The position numbers and the translations under genes were made by a program. Shown here piece after piece: positions 20,666 through 64,000 of a DNA stretch of 64,000 bases (the stretch's first letter is position 1; the number at the start of each line of letters is the position of its first letter). The notes beneath the pieces were generated by a model, which saw only the letters and a list, made by a program, of their open reading frames with translations, was not told where the DNA came from and searched no databases. The stretch is taken from NCBI GenBank assembly GCA_000165345.1, contig CM000431.1, positions 864,001-928,000 of the forward strand. Reading direction: 5' to 3'.

Positions 20666-20705
20666 TGGCGCCCTCTGAAATAACTTGAGGCCACCATTTG
20701 GCGCC
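20666..20705. promoter_or_regulatory. pair of GGCGCC E2F-like sites (CCTTGGCGCCCTC and CATTTGGCGCCTAAA) in a divergent promoter
   Basis: They lie in the ~980-bp spacer between the start of the exchanger gene (20060, minus) and the start of the TRIP4-like gene (21038, plus). CCGCCATTT follows immediately. Confidence 0.45.
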
Positions 20706-21037: not shown

Positions 21038-22023
21038 ATGAGGTCTATCAGAATTTCTGATATTCAATTCCAACAAAAAAAAGGTAATAAGAAAAATAAA
21101 AAAAATAATATTTCAGGTTATGACAATAAAATAAGTGATTCAAATATTGGCGCCGATTCATCGGTATTAGTAGAATGTGGATGCTATGCGAAATTGCATG
21201 CAATTTATATTACATGCATACAATGTGGTAAGTTGCGAATAAAAATTTCTTAGGGAGAATGATTTAATGTGAATATGAGGTGGAGAGAGGTAATAAGTCA
21301 GAAATAATATCAAATTAATTAAAATTGTAATTTTTAGGAAGGATTTCATGTGAATTAGAGAAGGATATTATTGAGTTAAATAATGAATGTATATTTTGTA
21401 AATCCAAGTTAGTTAAAGATGAGAGTGGAGATTTTATTTCAGAAGGAAACAATGAGGATGAGGAAATAGCTCATTATTTTCAAGCATTAGAGAGGAGAGA
21501 TAGATTATTAGAGTATGCAAAAAATTCTACAAGTAGAACACGGGTAATTGATGAAGAAACTGACTGGTTTTCAGAATTTGAAAACCCTTGGAATACTAAA
21601 GATGAAAGACTTTTAGCATTGAAAATGTCGAAAGAATGCGCCGAAAGTGCAGCAAAAAGTAGGTTTTCAAAATATATTTTTGTGATTAGAATTTAATACA
21701 TTATTATAGGGAAAACAATGATAAATATAGATATTGAAAACAAGCAGATTACAATGGATGAAGGTTATAATACAAGGAATGCCTTGCATTATGCAAAATT
21801 ATTAGAAGAATTTGAACATAGAAGAGAAAAAAAGACTGATATAAGTACTGGAAAAACTGAAACAAATGTCGAGAATGTATTAAGTATGTTGGGACAAAGA
21901 CTAAGATTTGAAGAAGAATCCAAAATTGAGGGTAGCTTTAAATTACCTAATAAAGATACTATAATAAATGAGTTTTTGCCTTTATCAGTGAATGATCCAG
22001 TTTGGTCAGATCAGGATGATTAA
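21038..22023 (+). CDS. ASC-1/TRIP4-type zf-C2HC5 zinc-finger protein; three exons (21038..21227, 21338..21658, 21710..22023)
   Basis: Exon 1 ends ...VECGCYAKLHAIYITCIQCG at a GTAAGT donor (21228). The acceptor is TTTTTAG at 21337. The spliced junction reads CIQCG|RISCELEKDIIELNNECIFCKSKLV, which is the C2HC5 finger of TRIP4. The downstream TSRTRVIDEETDWF matches the TRIP4 TSIRRTQVIDDESDYF. The second intron runs 21659..21709 (GTAGGT...TATAG). Phases are consistent (1/1), joining to the listed ORF 21718..22023. No ASCH domain is present. Confidence 0.75.
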
Positions 22024-54735: not shown

Positions 54736-54996
54736 TCATGCTGAATTCTGAGATTTAGAGTATTCCTCAGAAGTATAACACTTCATAGTGACAGAATGGA
54801 TTTCATTATAAACCTCTCCAATGGCTTCGTTAACCAATCTTTGTCTTTCCAAGATTCTTTTACCGACAAAACAGTCTGATACAACAATAACTTTAAACAT
54901 ATACCCACAATTACAATTGCTGACATCTACAACGTCAAGAAGTGTAGGATTCAAAGATTTGGAAATTCTTTCATTGATAGTTTCTTGGATACTCAT
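54736..54996 (-). CDS. BolA-like protein, 86 aa
   Basis: ...LNPTLLDVVDVSNCNCGYMFKVIVVSDCFVGKRILERQRLVNEAI...IHSVTMKCYTSEEY fits the BolA fold pattern (L..V.D.S.....F...VVS..F.G...L.RH..V...L....IHA..i...T..E). Confidence 0.65.
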   Translation of the reverse strand: MSIQETINERISKSLNPTLLDVVDVSNCNCGYMFKVIVVSDCFVGKRILERQRLVNEAIGEVYNEIHSVTMKCYTSEEYSKSQNSA

Positions 54997-55483
54997 TTGC
55001 GATAATTTGAATCAATTCTAAATTAATCAATAAGTTTAAAAATCAAAAATGGTAGTATTGGCGAAAATTTAATCGAATTTTTTGATTTAAAAAAATGGAT
55101 AAAATTTTTCCAACCGAATAATTAAAATTTCTTTTTATTATTAAAATATCAAATTAAAAAAAAATTTATTTAAAAAAAAAATCCCTGCAGAAATAATTAT
55201 TGTCAAGACAAATCATGCGCCTGAATTTTGGTTTTTAATAAAAATTTAAAAAAAAAATATTAATAAATTAAAGAAAAAAGTTATGAAACAAAGCTTATAG
55301 ATGTACTAACTCACATATATATATTAAGCATTTATATATATATTTATATATATCTGTAAATTAATATTATATATAAGCATATATTTTACCTATTTCAGTT
55401 AAGTTTTATAAAAAGAAAAAAAAAGAAATCCATTCTGGAGAGTGAAATTAATAATTACAAACAAAACACATCATTTTGGAAAA

Positions 55484-56242
55484 ATGGATAACACTTCGGA
55501 ACCAGGTGATAGTATGGAGTATTCATTTTCTGGAAATGAGCTGGATTATGAAGAAGAGGCTAGCTGGATAGAATGGTTTTGCTCACTTAAGAGAAGTGAA
55601 TTTTTTATTGAAGTAGATGATGAATATATTATGGATGACTTTAACTTGACTGGTTTAAATGAACATGTAATATACTACGATGATGCTCTTGACATGATTT
55701 TAGATCGTATTGATGATGACTTTAGTGAGGATGAAATAAGTGCAATTGAATCATCTGCCCAGCTACTTTATGGATTAATACACGCAAGATATATATTAAC
55801 ATCTAAAGGAATGCATTTGTTATTTGAAAAATACCAGACACAAAAATATGGTCTTTGTCCAAATGTTTCATGTAATAATTTCCCTTTATTACCTATTGGA
55901 CTTAGTGATCTACCAAATGTGAATAGTTGTAAAGTATACTGTGCAACATGTAATGAAGTATATAATCCAAAATCAACAAGACTAGCCTCCATAGATGGAG
56001 CATTCTTTGGTACAAGTTTTGCTCCACTATTTGCTTTGCAATATGGATTAGTTACCTCAAAAAATAAATCCCCCCAATATTATGTACCTAGAATATATGG
56101 ATTTGCCGTTTATAGAAATAAGAGAGATTTGCTTGCAGAAGAAGCTGAAGCTGAACTAGAAGCAGAAACTGAATCTAACGAATTTAAAAAAGATTTCAAA
56201 GGTGAATCAAGATTATTGATTCAGAAAAAAAATTCAAGATAA
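55484..56242 (+). CDS. CK2B: casein kinase II regulatory (beta) subunit
   Basis: ...SWIEWFCSLKRSEFFIEVDDEYIMDDFNLTGLNEHV...LLYGLIHARYILTSKGMHLLFEKY...YGLCPNVSCNNFPLLPIGLSDLPNVNSCKVYCATCNEVYNPKS...DGAFFGTSF matches CK2-beta along its length, including the zinc-ribbon Cys. The ORF-track start at 55442 is GTG. The first in-frame ATG is at 55484 (MDNTSEP...). Confidence 0.93.
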   Translation: MDNTSEPGDSMEYSFSGNELDYEEEASWIEWFCSLKRSEFFIEVDDEYIMDDFNLTGLNEHVIYYDDALDMILDRIDDDFSEDEISAIESSAQLLYGLIHARYILTSKGMHLLFEKYQTQKYGLCPNVSCNNFPLLPIGLSDLPNVNSCKVYCATCNEVYNPKSTRLASIDGAFFGTSFAPLFALQYGLVTSKNKSPQYYVPRIYGFAVYRNKRDLLAEEAEAELEAETESNEFKKDFKGESRLLIQKKNSR

Positions 56243-60260: not shown

Positions 60261-60353
60261 TATATTTGCATTTCTACTAATTTCTCCCTACTTTTTAATA
60301 ATTAAACAACTCTTATAATTACTAATTATTATAATTCATGCCAAAATACCGCC

Positions 60354-60365
60354 AGCGCCAAAAAC
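60354..60365. promoter_or_regulatory. E2F half-site-like AGCGCCAAAAA about 100 bp upstream of the helicase ATG
   Basis: A GC island in the AT-rich 5' flank. It is an imperfect match to the GGCGCCAAA copies elsewhere. Confidence 0.3.
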
Positions 60366-60934
60366 ATGCACGACCATTATTGATAAATATTAAAAGGTTA
60401 CCAATTTAAAGTAAATATGTAATGAAAAAAAAAAATGTTTTTTTTTGGCGGGAGATTTTGTTAAATATAAAATGCATGGAATAATGCAATTAATGTTAGA
60501 GGTAGAAAATGTTAAAATATTTAAAGATTACGAGAAAGTGAGAGTATGTTGGAGAAAAAAAATAAGGAAAAAAAAATAAAGAAAAGAAGTATAGGAAGAA
60601 GCAAAAGAAAAGAATAATATTTATTTGAGCTTAAGAATGAATAGATCCCGAATATTATTAGGTTTTATTAATTGAAATATAAAAATACGTAGATTTAAAA
60701 CTTTAAAAAATAATTATTATTAGTTTTATTTTTGTAAGAACTATCTTAAGTTAATTACGTTAAATTCAAACAGATTTTCTATTATTCTAACGAGGGTGAA
60801 ATGAAAAATAAAAGTTTAAGTAATTTGCATTCCGCCAATCATTGCTGGATTAAATATTAATAGATTACACAAATTTTTTTTAATTAGTTATAAGTAAATA
60901 ATATTGCTGAATTAAAATTAGCAACAAAATTTTA

Positions 60935-63900
60935 ATGGGAATTTCCCATACATTTATAAACTATATAATCACTTTCTGTTTAATTATATTACTGGAGTTT
61001 ATTTTTTCTATTGATATTTTAGACAGAGAGGATACTTATTGTAATGAGAATAATATATCAGATTTAATTTGTGTACCAGTAAGTATTATTGTTCATTTTT
61101 TTTTCTTTTCTTAAAAAAAAAACTTTATTCATACAAAATTATATACAAAATTCACTCATTATTTTAGAATGATAACATTATTGAACTTATTAATAAAATA
61201 ATTGAAGATTTATCACCAAAATTGCAATTAAAAGAAGAATACCAAGATATAAATACATATTTAGTTTTTAATGAGTTGGAATTTGTTAAAAGCCCATTAT
61301 ACTCTTGTGGTCATCCAAAATCAAAATTAATAGAACTGGATAACATTAAGAAAACATTCTTATGTATGGTAACAGAAGAATTACAAAAAGTTCTACAATG
61401 TAAAAGTGGATATGAATTAACTGAGGTATTAATAGAGAATCCTAGTAAAAAACTTGGATATGGTGAATCTGAAATTAGACCAAGAACTAATAGAGAGAAG
61501 AAATATGCAATAAAAAGTGATAAAATTTGTATTAAAACTGTAAAAGTTCCTGTTGAAATTATATGCAAAGTAAGTTTTCGCTATTTTTAAATGTTGAATT
61601 ATTAATATTTAAAAAAAAAAACAATTTTATATTTTAGGATGGCAAATTTAAAGATGGATTTTGTGTTAAGGAAGAAACAACAAATCCATTATATGAATGC
61701 CCTAAAGGATTACATGTGACTCCAAGAAGATGGTGTGGATATATTAAAAAAGAATTAAATGAAAGTTTAATGGAAAATGTAATTAAAAGAACAAATCCTG
61801 GATGTGTTATTAAAACAGTACATCCATGGTTTAAATCTACAGCTACTGTTGAATGTTATAATAGTAATAATGGTTATATTGTAGGTATTACAGAGGATGA
61901 TTGGGTTAATGTTATACCACCAACAATAAAATGTCCAAGAGATTTTGAAATAATATTCCCAACATATCCAACAGAAGATACAATTAAAGGTAATTTTACT
62001 TTTCCTCCGGTATGTCTTGCTAGAAGATATTTTCCAAGAAGTATAAGTTGTCCAGGAATATTATTAAGAAATGGACTTATAGTAACTGATAGATATATTG
62101 TTGATAACGAATTGAATCCAACTCCATTTAAGCAGAAAATAGATGTTTCACATTATTCTTGTCAGGTACAAAGTAGGGTGAAGCCAAATATAGTTTGTCC
62201 AATAATTAATATGGATTATTACTCAAGATTAAGATATGTTTTCCCAAATAATGAATATTATTTGAATTCACATTTCAATACTGAAGAAGTTATTAATTAT
62301 CAATCGGGACTTTTTGATTTTACAAGTTATTCAAATTTTTTAAATGAGAATCCAAATATTATTAATGAGTTAAAGGAAAATCAGTTAAGTCAATTGAGTA
62401 ATGTTTCTGATACTAATTCCACAATATCCAATAGTTCTATTTCCAATTCCAACTTAAATGACTCAATTGTATCAACATCCAATGATAATGATAATGATAA
62501 TGATAACTCAACTTTGAAATCTAGTCCATATTATAACTATAAGGCCTACAAAAATGAGTTTCATGAATATAAATACTATTATAATGATACTTTAAATAAA
62601 CACTTAAAGTCCATGAATGATTACAATAACCATGAATACTCATATTATCCATTCAGGTTGAATACTACTTTGGATAATCCTTGGAATACAAAAACTAGTA
62701 ATAATATTAGTAACAATTTGAGACGGGAGGATCATAGAAAAGTACATTCAATTCATTCAAAAGGTTCACAAATAGAAAAAGTGGTTGGAGCAAAACAATT
62801 CGATAAAGAATATGATAACTTTCTACAAGGATTAAAAATAGATTTATCAAAACAAAGTGAGTACTTTAATGATTATCAATGGGATTTCTTAAGCAAATTC
62901 TATAGAGTTTATATATCAGATCAATATAAATTTGTATCAAATATTCCAGTTTCTTCTATTTCACATAAAGCATTGACAATAGATGGAGGTTATCAACTGA
63001 ATATTAATTTAGATCCAACTTATCAAAGCTTTGTCAATTATACATTGGAAAATATGAAAATGATGGATTCTGAATTGAAAATTAACAATTTAATGGATAA
63101 TCTGAACGATACAATGATTAATAATAATGATAATGTTACTGATAGTAATAGTAGTAATGATAATAATACCGATAGTAATAATAATAACATTACTGAGATT
63201 AATATGAATATTAATAATCCTCAATTAATAGAAAAGTTATTAATTTTAAATGATACTAATACAACCAATAATCTTAATTTTACAAGAGATCATGAATATA
63301 ATGCTTGGGAAAAATCTGCAAGAATATATTTTATGGATTTAGATTTGATGAAAAAGAATCAAATAATTTATTCGAGTATTAGTAACTATAAACATAAGAG
63401 AAAGTTTCCATTTCTATATTATTATGGAAGACAACCAAGTATTAATAATGATTATGGACATATTAGAAGACCAGCAATTTCTGACCACAAATATAGATAT
63501 GGAAGTCCTGCAGAAGATTATCACAAATACAGTGGAAGACATGAAAATAGCGATTTACTTTATTATATTAACAAACATTTAAATCAGACAAAACCTTATA
63601 GACATTCTCCAGGGCCACAAACTTATCATAATTGTATATCTATAAATGAGACAACTCCAATAATAGAGTGTCCAAATTCAAATATTATTATTCCAAAATG
63701 TTTTATACTTGATATAATATATGGAATTTTTACAGCAAATAGTCAAAAGAATATTAATGATACATTGATTAAAGATATTGACGAAATGAATTTGAATAAT
63801 TCAATTTCTGAAACAAATGGCAATATTCAAGAAGAAGAAAAGAAAAAAAGGGAAGAGAAGAAAAAGAGAGAAGAAGAAGAGAAGATTAAGAAAGAAAAAG

Positions 63901-64000
63901 AAGAGGAAGAAAAAGCTTTTATGGATAATTATATTAATAGTAGACCAATTTCAATTCAAGAAGGATTGAATGATTTGGGAGATTTAGAAGCTATTGAAAG
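60935..64000 (+). CDS. multi-exon secreted cysteine-rich protein, 3'-partial (exons 60935..61078, 61168..61569, 61638..>64000)
   Basis: The ATG at 60935 encodes the signal peptide MGISHTFINYIITFCLIILLEFIFSIDIL. A GTAAGT donor at 61079 and a TTTTAG acceptor ending at 61167 join exon 1 in frame to the listed ORF 61222..61590. That ORF's apparent start is TTG, and its stop lies inside a second intron (donor AAA|GTAAGT at 61570, acceptor TTTTAG ending 61637). Exon 3 then reads open for ~787 codons to the window end. It contains repeated CP.G....C-like Cys motifs (YECPKGLHVTPRRWC, KCPRDF...VCLARR, SCPGILL), Asn/Asp low complexity (NDNDNDN) and a Glu/Lys-rich tail. Confidence 0.65.

What the first reader, a model, noticed from the sequence alone, without database searches (positions are those of the whole stretch)
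21038..22023. Unannotated three-exon ASC-1/TRIP4-type C2HC5 zinc-finger gene split across two ORF-track fragments
The ORF track shows two unrelated short ORFs (21038..21253 and 21718..22023). A GTAAGT donor at 21228 and a TTTTTAG acceptor at 21337 rebuild a contiguous C2HC5 finger: CGCYAKLHAIYITCIQCG|RISCELE...CIFC. A hidden middle exon (21338..21658) also carries a second TRIP4-conserved block (TSRTRVIDEETDWF). A 51-nt second intron links it in phase to the last ORF. Introns are rare in this otherwise intronless window, so this gene would be missed by ORF-based annotation. It lacks the ASCH domain of metazoan TRIP4, which suggests a minimal ASC-1-like factor.
Basis: partly seen in the sequence, partly recalled or inferred. 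Interest (0 to 1): 0.6.

Follow-up and report, generated by a model that had tools for sequence, protein, structure and literature searches.

The report
Known Cryptosporidium TRIP4/RQT4 zinc-finger gene
The two short ORFs are exons of one real three-exon Cryptosporidium parvum gene for a small TRIP4/RQT4-type zinc-finger protein, but the gene model is already in public annotations, so the finding is correct and ordinary.

Summary
Exons 21038-21227, 21338-21658 and 21710-22023, joined across GT..AG introns of 110 and 51 nt, give a 274-aa protein. That protein is identical to C. parvum QOY42705.1 (CPATCC_001376) and WRK31594.1. Both intron positions are conserved in six other Cryptosporidium species. 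Intron lengths vary and introns diverge much faster than exons.

The spliced product passes Pfam zf-C2HC5, while neither fragment does. All eight zinc ligands are invariant in 107 of 107 homologues. A family profile matches human TRIP4 (8ALZ, E=4.5e-13) and yeast Rqt4 (7ZPQ), and hhalign gives 99.85% probability over the finger plus the TRIP4 "third domain". No ASCH or TRI4_N domain is present. No ASCH is encoded anywhere in the window or the orthologous loci.

"Unannotated" holds only for a plain ORF track and the 2004 annotation. Isaza et al. 2015 listed cgd3_3540 as an exon of a flanking gene, and the 2022 IOWA-ATCC annotation carries this exact product.

The likely function, inferred and not shown, is a reduced RQT4/TRIP4 subunit that docks through its finger on the ASCC3/Slh1 helicase. 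ASCH-less homologues are common: 76 of 107 sampled lacked an ASCH match.

The parts
21038..21227 (+). Exon 1 (190 nt, residues 1-63 plus the first base of Gly64). It encodes a conserved N-terminal peptide MRSIRISDIQFQ, a Lys/Asn-rich low-complexity stretch and zinc ligands C47, C49, H54, C60 and C63.
   Evidence: The splice brute force reproduces the annotated proteins only with this exon end. Exon 1 is 63-94% identical across species. The ligands are invariant in 107 of 107 homologues.
21228..21337 (+). Intron 1 (110 nt, GTAAGT...TTTTTAG, phase 1, 25% GC).
   Evidence: The intron sits at the same position and phase in 6 annotated species. Lengths are 110, 112, 112, 97, 112 and 86 nt. Identity is 29-89%, against 63-94% for exon 1. 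An in-frame stop follows at codon 72 if the intron is unspliced.
21338..21658 (+). Exon 2 (321 nt). It encodes zinc ligands C68, C81 and C84 and most of the TRIP4 third domain, including TSRTRVIDEETDWF.
   Evidence: It has no ATG-initiated ORF of its own, which is why an ORF track misses it.
21659..21709 (+). Intron 2 (51 nt, GTAGGT...TTATAG, phase 1, 18% GC).
   Evidence: The position is conserved. Lengths are 51, 51, 53, 55, 51 and 64 nt, so three of six species have lengths that are not multiples of three. Retention gives a stop at codon 183 in this window.
21710..22023 (+). Exon 3 (314 nt including the TAA stop at 22021-22023). It encodes the end of the third domain, a helical region and a conserved C-terminal peptide.
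   Evidence: The first 7 codons, (R)KTMINID, are conserved with synonymous changes and align to the TRIP4 consensus and to Chromera 'NIDIENR'.
21176..21399 (+). Coding span of the C2HC5 dual zinc finger, from the C47 codon to the C84 codon, interrupted by intron 1. By homology with TRIP4 the predicted sites are Zn1 = C47/C49/H54/C68 and Zn2 = C60/C63/C81/C84, so both sites need ligands from both exons.
   Evidence: Pfam PF06221 covers residues 46-92. Ligand pairing in human TRIP4 comes from PMC10076317. The AF2 model has pLDDT of about 90 over residues 50-90.
21457..21771 (+). Coding span of the TRIP4 'third domain' (residues about 104-191), interrupted by intron 2.
   Evidence: hhalign columns 44-191 give probability 99.85% and E=9.2e-31. 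The HMMER match is to TRIP4 chain residues 265-383. Pfam PF23134 scores only 14.8 bits for the single sequence, below the cut-off of 27.7.
21970..22020 (+). C-terminal peptide NEFLPLSVNDPVWSDQDD. It is conserved across the genus but predicted disordered, so it is a candidate short binding motif.
   Evidence: E258, F259, P261, L262, D266, V268, W269, S270 and D271 are invariant in 8 sequences. pLDDT is below 50 over residues 243-258 and 269-272, and the 10-residue block means from residue 241 onward are 47-51. It resembles the pre-ASCH peptide of alveolate TRIP4s by eye only, and hhalign does not confirm this.
21710..21730 (+). Segment removed by an alternative in-frame distal acceptor (AG at 21729-21730, giving a 72-nt intron). 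Some public 267-aa models use it. It is most likely coding.
   Evidence: The distal AG is absent in C. canis and C. felis, while the peptide is conserved.
20666..20705 (.). Two TGGCGCC motifs, 371 and 338 nt upstream of the ATG, in the 977-nt divergent intergenic region. They are a candidate promoter element and this is inferred.
   Evidence: The window has 17 copies against 0.24 expected. A GGCGCC at about -350 is conserved in 3 other species.

Best explanation
This is the Cryptosporidium parvum chromosome-3 gene known as cgd3_3530 (merged with cgd3_3540) or CPATCC_001376. It has three exons and encodes a 274-aa orthologue of TRIP4/ASC-1 (yeast Rqt4).

The protein keeps only the conserved core of the family:
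- a cross-braced C2HC5 dual zinc finger;
- the helical 'third domain';
- a short conserved C-terminal peptide.

It lacks the N-terminal TRI4_N domain, whose counterpart in yeast Rqt4 binds K63-linked ubiquitin. It also lacks the C-terminal ASCH nucleic-acid-binding domain.

Shown here are the gene structure, the homology and the domain content. The mechanism is inferred. As in human and yeast, the finger would dock on the RecA1 domain of the C-terminal cassette of the ASCC3/Slh1 helicase. The protein would then be a structural accessory subunit of a reduced ribosome-quality-control trigger (RQT/ASC-1) complex that pulls stalled, collided ribosomes apart. It would not supply the ubiquitin-reading or helicase-stimulating contributions of the longer orthologues.
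For: **Gene model**
- The frame is open only after both splices.
- The product is identical to QOY42705.1 and WRK31594.1.
- Both intron positions and phases are conserved in C. meleagridis, chipmunk genotype I, C. ubiquitum, C. canis and C. felis, and in a seventh unnamed species (L006).
- All loci share synteny: Na/Ca exchanger on the minus strand, this gene, then a large plus-strand gene.
- Against C. felis, exons are 61-63% identical and introns 29-45%.
- Third-codon-position changes dominate, for example 37/31/89 against C. ubiquitum.
- The published dN/dS for CHUDEA3_3530 against cgd3_3530 is 0.208.
- Isaza 2015 Table S1 lists cgd3_3540 as an exon of a flanking gene.
- Baptista 2022 states that the introns of the IOWA-ATCC annotation are 100% supported by RNA-seq.

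**Family**
- Pfam zf-C2HC5 scores above the gathering score.
- The A1 profile matches human TRIP4 8alz_A at E=4.5e-13, over both the finger and the third domain.
- The A2 profile matches yeast RQT4 7zpq_CC at E=1.1e-32.
- hhalign against 35 ASCH-bearing TRIP4s gives 99.85% probability.
- There are 713 homologues at E<=1e-3. The eight ligands are invariant in 107 of 107.

**Mechanism**
- The TRIP4 finger alone binds the ASCC3 helicase region. The L174A/L180A/I190A mutant binds weakly. These positions align to Y50, I56 and I66 here, all hydrophobic.
- Deleting the Rqt4 finger abolishes Slh1 binding.
Against: - No experiment or partner search was done here. Whether Cryptosporidium encodes ASCC3/Slh1, ASCC2/Cue3 or Hel2/ZNF598 was not tested.
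- In human TRIP4 the finger-only fragment binds ASCC3 but barely stimulates it. In yeast the Rqt4 N-terminal domain contributes ubiquitin binding. A protein lacking both may therefore do little in ribosome splitting, or may do something else.
- Foldseek found no significant structural match. 8alz_A ranked second with only 49 aligned columns and E=3.3.
- PF23134 is below its cut-off for the single sequence.
- I did not see RNA-seq reads for this locus. The support comes from published annotations.
Confidence: 0.85

Rival explanations
1. There are two or three independent small genes, as in the 2004 annotations. A 71-aa or 182-192-aa protein would be encoded from 21038 and a 101-aa protein from 21718, with no splice joining them.
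For: Public records with these models still exist: XP_666508.1 (71 aa), XP_001388124.1 (192 aa, partial), KAL5369707.1 (182 aa) and XP_626904.1 (101 aa). Intron 2 is a multiple of three.
Against: - The finger is complete only across intron 1.
- The third domain runs across intron 2, with the first codons of exon 3 aligning to the TRIP4 consensus.
- Intron 2 is 53, 55 or 64 nt in three species, so read-through breaks the frame there.
- Isaza 2015 lists cgd3_3540 as an exon of a flanking gene.
- The 274-aa product is in the curated IOWA-ATCC annotation, whose introns are said to be all supported by RNA-seq.
Confidence: 0.02
2. The gene is the same, but intron 2 uses the distal acceptor at 21730 (a 72-nt intron). 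This gives a 267-aa protein lacking RKTMINID, as annotated in C. hominis 30976/TU502_2012 and C. ubiquitum. It could also be an alternative isoform.
For: Both acceptors are AG and in frame. The 267-aa models OLQ16035.1 and cubi_01162 are public.
Against: - The distal AG does not exist in C. canis or C. felis.
- RKTMIN[IV]D is conserved with synonymous third-position changes in all six species.
- The segment aligns to the TRIP4 consensus and to Chromera 'NIDIENR'.
- It forms a predicted beta-strand at residues 175-178.
- C. ubiquitum also has the proximal acceptor, giving a 55-nt intron.
Confidence: 0.08
3. The protein is the same, but it works mainly in the nucleus as an ASC-1-type transcription co-activator or DNA-repair (ASCC) adaptor, not in ribosome quality control.
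For: - TRIP4 was first described as a co-activator whose finger region binds TBP, TFIIA, SRC-1 and CBP/p300.
- TRIP4 localises to both cytosol and nucleus.
- The Lys-rich stretch KKGNKKNKKNN could act as a nuclear localisation signal, which is inference.
Against: [quoted passage not shown]
- The role shared by the yeast and human proteins in the papers read is RQT/ASCC-mediated ribosome splitting.
- Whether the co-activator's partners exist in Cryptosporidium was not examined here.
Confidence: 0.1
4. This is a decaying pseudogene remnant of a longer TRIP4 gene that lost its N-terminal and ASCH parts.
For: Its closest named non-Cryptosporidium relative, Chromera velia (672 aa), keeps ASCH.
Against: - The spliced frame is open in seven species.
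- Start, stop and length are conserved at 271-274 aa, counting the 267-aa C. ubiquitum model as about 274 aa with the proximal acceptor.
- All eight ligands are intact.
- Third-position substitutions are in excess and the published dN/dS is 0.208.
Confidence: 0.01

Closest known systems
Human TRIP4 / ASC-1 (PDB 8ALZ chain A, 581 aa)
   Same: - It has the same C2HC5 dual finger: C-x-C-x4-H-x5-C-x2-C-x4-C-...-C-x2-C.
- The three hydrophobic ASCC3-contact positions are conserved in character.
- The 'third domain' follows the finger.
   Different: - The window protein is under half the length.
- It has no TRI4_N domain and no ASCH domain.
- No lasso peptide was recognisable in the profile comparison.
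- The last finger loop is 12 residues, not 7.
Yeast Rqt4 (YKR023W; PDB 7ZPQ/7ZRS/7ZUW, 530 aa), subunit of the RQT complex with Slh1 and Cue3
   Same: The family profile A2, built with the window protein as first sequence, matches it at E=1.1e-32. In yeast the finger is the element needed for Slh1 binding.
   Different: Rqt4 has an N-terminal K63-ubiquitin-binding domain and long disordered regions. The Cryptosporidium protein has only 46 residues before the finger. I did not scan Rqt4 itself for ASCH.
Annotated Cryptosporidium orthologues: QOY42705.1/CPATCC_001376, CUV05295.1 (CHUDEA3_3530), TRY52382.1, cmbei_3003533, ELE39_001454, cubi_01162, OIY81_1105, C. felis 'Activating signal cointegrator 1'
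   Same: They are identical (C. parvum) or 56-97% identical, with the same three-exon structure and synteny.
   Different: There is no difference for C. parvum. Some records use other splice choices or split the gene.
Chromera velia Cvel_25252 (672 aa, 'ASCH domain-containing protein')
   Same: It is the closest named relative outside the genus. It shares the finger, the third domain and the motif NIDIENR.
   Different: It keeps a long N-terminal region and the ASCH domain. This suggests both were lost in the lineage leading to Cryptosporidium, which is inference.

Membership tests
zf-C2HC5 (Pfam PF06221) / TRIP4-RQT4 family | Eight zinc ligands in the order C, C, H, C, C, C, C, C with the family spacing | tested here: met
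   C47, C49, H54, C60, C63, C68, C81 and C84 are invariant in 107 of 107 aligned homologues. The spacing equals human TRIP4 except for a 5-residue longer last loop.
zf-C2HC5 (Pfam PF06221) / TRIP4-RQT4 family | Score at or above Pfam's gathering cut-off | tested here: met
   The score is 27.9 bits against a cut-off of 25.8, E=2.3e-6, over residues 46-92. It is met only by the spliced product.
TRIP4-RQT4 family | TRIP4 'third domain' (PF23134) following the finger | tested here: met
   The single sequence is below the cut-off (14.8 against 27.7 bits). The genus profile aligns to TRIP4 chain residues 265-383 with domain E=7.8e-8. hhalign covers columns 44-191 at 99.85% probability.
TRIP4-RQT4 family | Significant whole-protein homology to experimentally characterised members (human TRIP4, yeast Rqt4) | tested here: met
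   8alz_A matches at E=4.5e-13. 7zpq_CC matches at E=1.1e-32 with the deeper profile.
Metazoan-type TRIP4 / ASC-1 (full architecture) | C-terminal ASCH domain (PF04266) | tested here: not met
   There is no Pfam hit at E<=1. A custom ASCH HMM finds nothing at E<=10 in six-frame translations of the whole window and of loci L001-L006, while its positive control hit 50 of 167 homologues. The stop codon and C-terminus are conserved in the genus.
Metazoan-type TRIP4 / ASC-1 (full architecture) | N-terminal TRI4_N domain (PF23135) | tested here: not met
   There is no hit. Only 46 residues precede the finger, and they are low-complexity with pLDDT below 50. The upstream 300 nt is poorly conserved.
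RQT / ASC-1 complex subunit (functional membership) | Binds the C-terminal helicase cassette of ASCC3/Slh1 through the finger | not testable with these tools
   Only indirect evidence exists. Positions equivalent to TRIP4 L174, L180 and I190 are Y50, I56 and I66. No complex prediction or partner search was possible.
RQT / ASC-1 complex subunit (functional membership) | Partner genes (ASCC3/Slh1, ASCC2/Cue3, Hel2/ZNF598) present in the same genome | not tested
   None lies in the 64-kb window. A full-text search found no paper listed that mentions both Cryptosporidium and ASCC3.
Spliceosomal intron-containing gene of Cryptosporidium | GT..AG boundaries, short AT-rich introns and positions conserved among species | tested here: met
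   The introns are 110 and 51 nt with 25% and 18% GC. Published means are 99 nt and 22% GC. Positions are conserved in 7 species.
Spliceosomal intron-containing gene of Cryptosporidium | Spliced transcripts observed | not testable with these tools
   No reads were available here. Support comes indirectly from the published reannotations.

The most novel reading that the evidence does not exclude
Cryptosporidium carries a naturally minimised RQT4. It has only the ASCC3/Slh1-docking finger, the third domain and a short C-terminal peptide that may correspond to the last stretch before ASCH. It has lost both the ubiquitin-reading N-terminal domain and the helicase-stimulating ASCH domain. If the partners exist, this would define the smallest functional TRIP4 core. 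It would also suggest that ribosome-collision rescue is wired differently in a parasite with an AT-rich genome of about 28% GC in this window.
Probability: 0.35. Interest if true: 0.3.

Novelty: already known. Interest (0 to 1): 0.1.

Why it matters
Little is new. The finding is a clean positive control for intron-aware reading of raw sequence. It reproduces a correction that took the community from 2004 to 2015-2022 to make.

Three practical points follow:
- Public databases still hold at least four conflicting models of this gene (274, 267, 192/182 + 101 and 71 aa). The comparative evidence here favours the 274-aa model.
- Anyone surveying ribosome-quality-control factors in Apicomplexa should use the 274-aa model. 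The finger is detectable only in the spliced product.
- The protein is a compact natural truncation of TRIP4 that could be used to ask what the finger plus third domain do on their own.

Tried and rejected
1. Foldseek of the AF2 model against the PDB gave no match at E<=0.001. 8alz_A appeared only as a 49-column, E=3.3 hit, because the finger is too small and the rest is helical or disordered.
2. The afdb50 fold library was not available.
3. I tried to show that the C-terminal peptide DPVWSDQDD is the homologue of the TRIP4 pre-ASCH or lasso peptide.
   - By eye it resembles the alveolate sequence 'KPMFTDSED'.
   - MAFFT scatters it and hhalign stops at column 191, so I kept it only as a lead.
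4. I looked for a TRIP4-ASCC3 fusion among long homologues to obtain a helicase query. The long hits carry unrelated domains (FAD_binding_3, DEAD/KH, NAGidase, AlkB-like) and are probably merged models or other fusions.
5. A literature search for Cryptosporidium with ASCC3 or ribosome quality control listed no paper mentioning Cryptosporidium.
6. Naming the nearest non-Cryptosporidium homologues failed for most of them. They are unnamed metagenomic proteins, and only Chromera velia had a name.
7. I considered an extra upstream or downstream exon and rejected it.
   - The flanks are poorly conserved.
   - The N- and C-termini are conserved in the genus.
   - No ASCH signal exists in any frame.

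Full report
**1. What is in the sequence**

The window is AT-rich, with GC of 21-35% per 2-kb bin. It carries long uninterrupted eukaryotic genes. These include PCNA, a DWNN protein, an RRM protein, a Na/Ca exchanger, MRS2, a DRG-type GTPase and ALG9. Further genes encode a Kelch-BTB protein, an M18 aminopeptidase, CDK5RAP3, CK2-beta, MINDY and a DEAD-box helicase.

- GTAAGT begins at 21228 and TTTTTAG ends at 21337.
- GTAGGT begins at 21659 and TTATAG ends at 21709.

Joining 21038-21227, 21338-21658 and 21710-22023 gives an 825-nt frame of 274 codons plus stop. Intron 1 sits in phase 1 inside the Gly64 codon, so the peptide reads ...YITCIQCG|RISCELE...ECIFC. Without splicing the frame ends at codon 72. 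With only intron 2 retained it ends at codon 183.

**2. Is the gene model real?**

Yes, on four independent lines of evidence.

(a) Only the spliced product reaches the Pfam gathering score for zf-C2HC5 (27.9 against 25.8 bits). The 71-aa ORF and the middle-exon reading frame do not.

(b) The 274-aa conceptual product is letter-for-letter identical to C. parvum QOY42705.1 (CPATCC_001376) and WRK31594.1. Near-identical 274-aa orthologues are annotated in C. hominis UdeA01 (CUV05295.1) and C. tyzzeri. This also identifies the window as C. parvum chromosome 3.

(c) I fetched the orthologous loci of C. felis, C. ubiquitum, C. canis, chipmunk genotype I and C. meleagridis, plus an unnamed species from a Logan assembly. 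All annotated loci show the same neighbours: a Na/Ca exchanger on the minus strand upstream and a roughly 1100-aa gene downstream. A brute-force search for GT..AG pairs that reproduce each annotated protein gave one solution per species.
- Exon 1 ends in phase 1 at the same Gly codon in every species.
- Intron 1 is 110, 112, 112, 97, 112 and 86 nt.
- Intron 2 is 51, 51, 53, 76 (as annotated in C. ubiquitum, 55 with the proximal acceptor), 51 and 64 nt.
- Lengths that are not multiples of three exclude read-through in those species.

(d) Exons evolve like coding sequence and introns do not.
- Against C. ubiquitum, exons are 78-82% identical and introns 52-65%.
- Against C. felis, the figures are 61-63% and 29-45%.
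- Substitutions concentrate at third codon positions, for example 37/31/89.

Published work agrees. Isaza et al. [quoted passage not shown] They report dN/dS of 0.208 for CHUDEA3_3530 against cgd3_3530. Baptista et al. 2022 state that the introns of the IOWA-ATCC annotation, which contains this exact product, are 100% supported by RNA-seq. I did not see reads for this locus myself.

**3. Conflicting public models**

The protein cluster also holds several other models:
- a 71-aa model (C. hominis TU502);
- the 101-aa cgd3_3540-type model;
- 192-aa and 182-aa models that use other intron-1 choices and read into intron 2;
- 267-aa models that use a distal intron-2 acceptor, at 21730 in this window.

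The distal acceptor is in frame and removes RKTMINID. Four observations argue against it:
- The AG is missing in C. canis and C. felis.
- The peptide is conserved with synonymous changes in all six species.
- The segment aligns to the TRIP4 consensus and to Chromera velia "NIDIENR".
- It forms a predicted beta-strand in the model.

**4. What the protein is**

A profile of the eight Cryptosporidium sequences hits human TRIP4 (8alz_A) at E=4.5e-13 in two collinear pieces. One is the finger (chain residues 174-228) and the other is the following domain (265-383).

An exhaustive HMMER search found 713 homologues at E<=1e-3. In an alignment of 107 of them the only invariant columns are the eight ligands C47, C49, H54, C60, C63, C68, C81 and C84, plus G64. 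The deeper profile also hits yeast RQT4 (7zpq_CC, E=1.1e-32). hhalign against 35 ASCH-bearing TRIP4s gives 99.85% probability and E=9.2e-31 over residues 44-191.

By homology with the human structure (C171/C173/H178/C192 and C184/C187/C200/C203), the two zinc sites are C47/C49/H54/C68 and C60/C63/C81/C84. Intron 1 separates five ligands from three, so both sites draw on both exons. This explains why neither fragment is recognisable alone.

The AF2 model has mean pLDDT 71, about 90 over the finger, and below 50 for residues 1-40 and much of the C-terminal 30 residues. Foldseek against the PDB gave nothing significant.

**5. What it lacks**

There is no ASCH or TRI4_N match at E<=1. An ASCH HMM built from the homologues finds nothing in any frame of the window or of the six orthologous loci. 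Its positive control recovered 50 of 167 homologues.

The start MRSIRISDIQFQ and the end ...VWSDQDD are conserved in the genus. The flanks are poorly conserved. Extra exons are therefore unlikely.

The architecture is not exceptional. Of 107 homologues, 106 match zf-C2HC5, 73 match TRIP4_3rd, 31 match ASCH and 19 match TRI4_N, although some of these predicted proteins may be fragments. The closest named outgroup, Chromera velia (672 aa), keeps ASCH. Loss in the lineage leading to Cryptosporidium is the simplest reading, and it is an inference.

**6. How it most likely works (inferred)**

In human cells the TRIP4 finger alone binds the ASCC3 helicase region, on RecA1 of the C-terminal cassette. 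The L174A/L180A/I190A and C171A/C184A mutants lose or weaken binding. Helicase stimulation needs the lasso peptide and ASCH. In yeast, deleting the Rqt4 finger abolishes Slh1 binding, and the Rqt4 N-terminal domain binds K63-linked ubiquitin. ASCC3/ASCC2/TRIP4 and Slh1/Cue3/Rqt4 split collided, ubiquitinated ribosomes.

The Cryptosporidium protein keeps hydrophobic residues (Y50, I56, I66) at the three contact positions. I therefore expect a finger-docked accessory subunit of an ASCC3/Slh1-type helicase that lacks ubiquitin-reading and nucleic-acid-binding modules. The partner genes were not searched for, which is the main gap.

The conserved but disordered C-terminal peptide is a candidate second contact. 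Its resemblance to the pre-ASCH peptide of alveolate TRIP4s is visible by eye but has no statistical support.

**7. Verdict**

The gene, its three exons and its TRIP4/RQT4 assignment are already public: UniProt names the C. hominis orthologue "TRIP4/RQT4 C2HC5-type zinc finger domain-containing protein". Novelty is "already known" and interest is low.

Noticed in passing
window 3445, 16549, 20666, 20699, 28350, 28363, 34902, 40358, 52405 (intergenic); 21148 and 47192/47228 (inside coding sequence): TGGCGCC occurs 17 times (both strands counted) against 0.24 expected by chance. Most copies sit in intergenic regions just upstream of genes, for example about 170 nt before the PCNA ORF. From memory, this resembles the E2F-like upstream motif described for Cryptosporidium. 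A copy about 350 nt upstream of the TRIP4-like gene is conserved in three other species.
   Followed up: partly
window 21038-22023 and public records: At least four incompatible public gene models exist for this locus: 274, 267, 192/182 + 101 and 71 aa. The C. ubiquitum and C. hominis 30976 models use a distal intron-2 acceptor that deletes seven conserved residues.
   Followed up: yes
homologues P0095, P0101, P0104, P0131 (not in the window): Several TRIP4-finger proteins carry a 2OG-Fe(II) oxygenase (AlkB-like) domain where ASCH would be. This is notable because human ALKBH3 and TRIP4 bind ASCC3 in a mutually exclusive manner. They could be real fusions or merged gene models.
   Followed up: no
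L006:1-1300 (Logan SRR31860986 contig): An unnamed, more GC-rich Cryptosporidium-like species has the same three-exon gene. Its 51-nt intron 2 has no in-frame stop, so a prokaryote-style gene caller read straight through it (P0007).
   Followed up: partly
window 54736-54996 (-): This is an 86-aa ORF in a 1.6-kb gap between larger ORFs. By eye its sequence looks BolA-like. It was not scanned.
   Followed up: no
window 60261-64000: This is a 3.7-kb stretch with no ORF of 150 aa or more, only short ORFs, some of them low-complexity. It could hold multi-exon or small genes, or a gene cut by the window end.
   Followed up: no
window 21073-21110: Exon 1 encodes KKGNKKNKKNN from an A-rich tract (caaaaaaaaaggtaataagaaaaataaaaaaaataat), with the longest A run being 9 bases. 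It is mildly ironic for a putative ribosome-stalling rescue factor, and no significance was established.
   Followed up: no
window 55442-56242 (+): The CK2-beta ORF is listed from a GTG, and the Pfam domain starts only at residue 41. An ATG lies at residue 15 of the listed ORF, so the true start is probably internal. This was not examined further.
   Followed up: no
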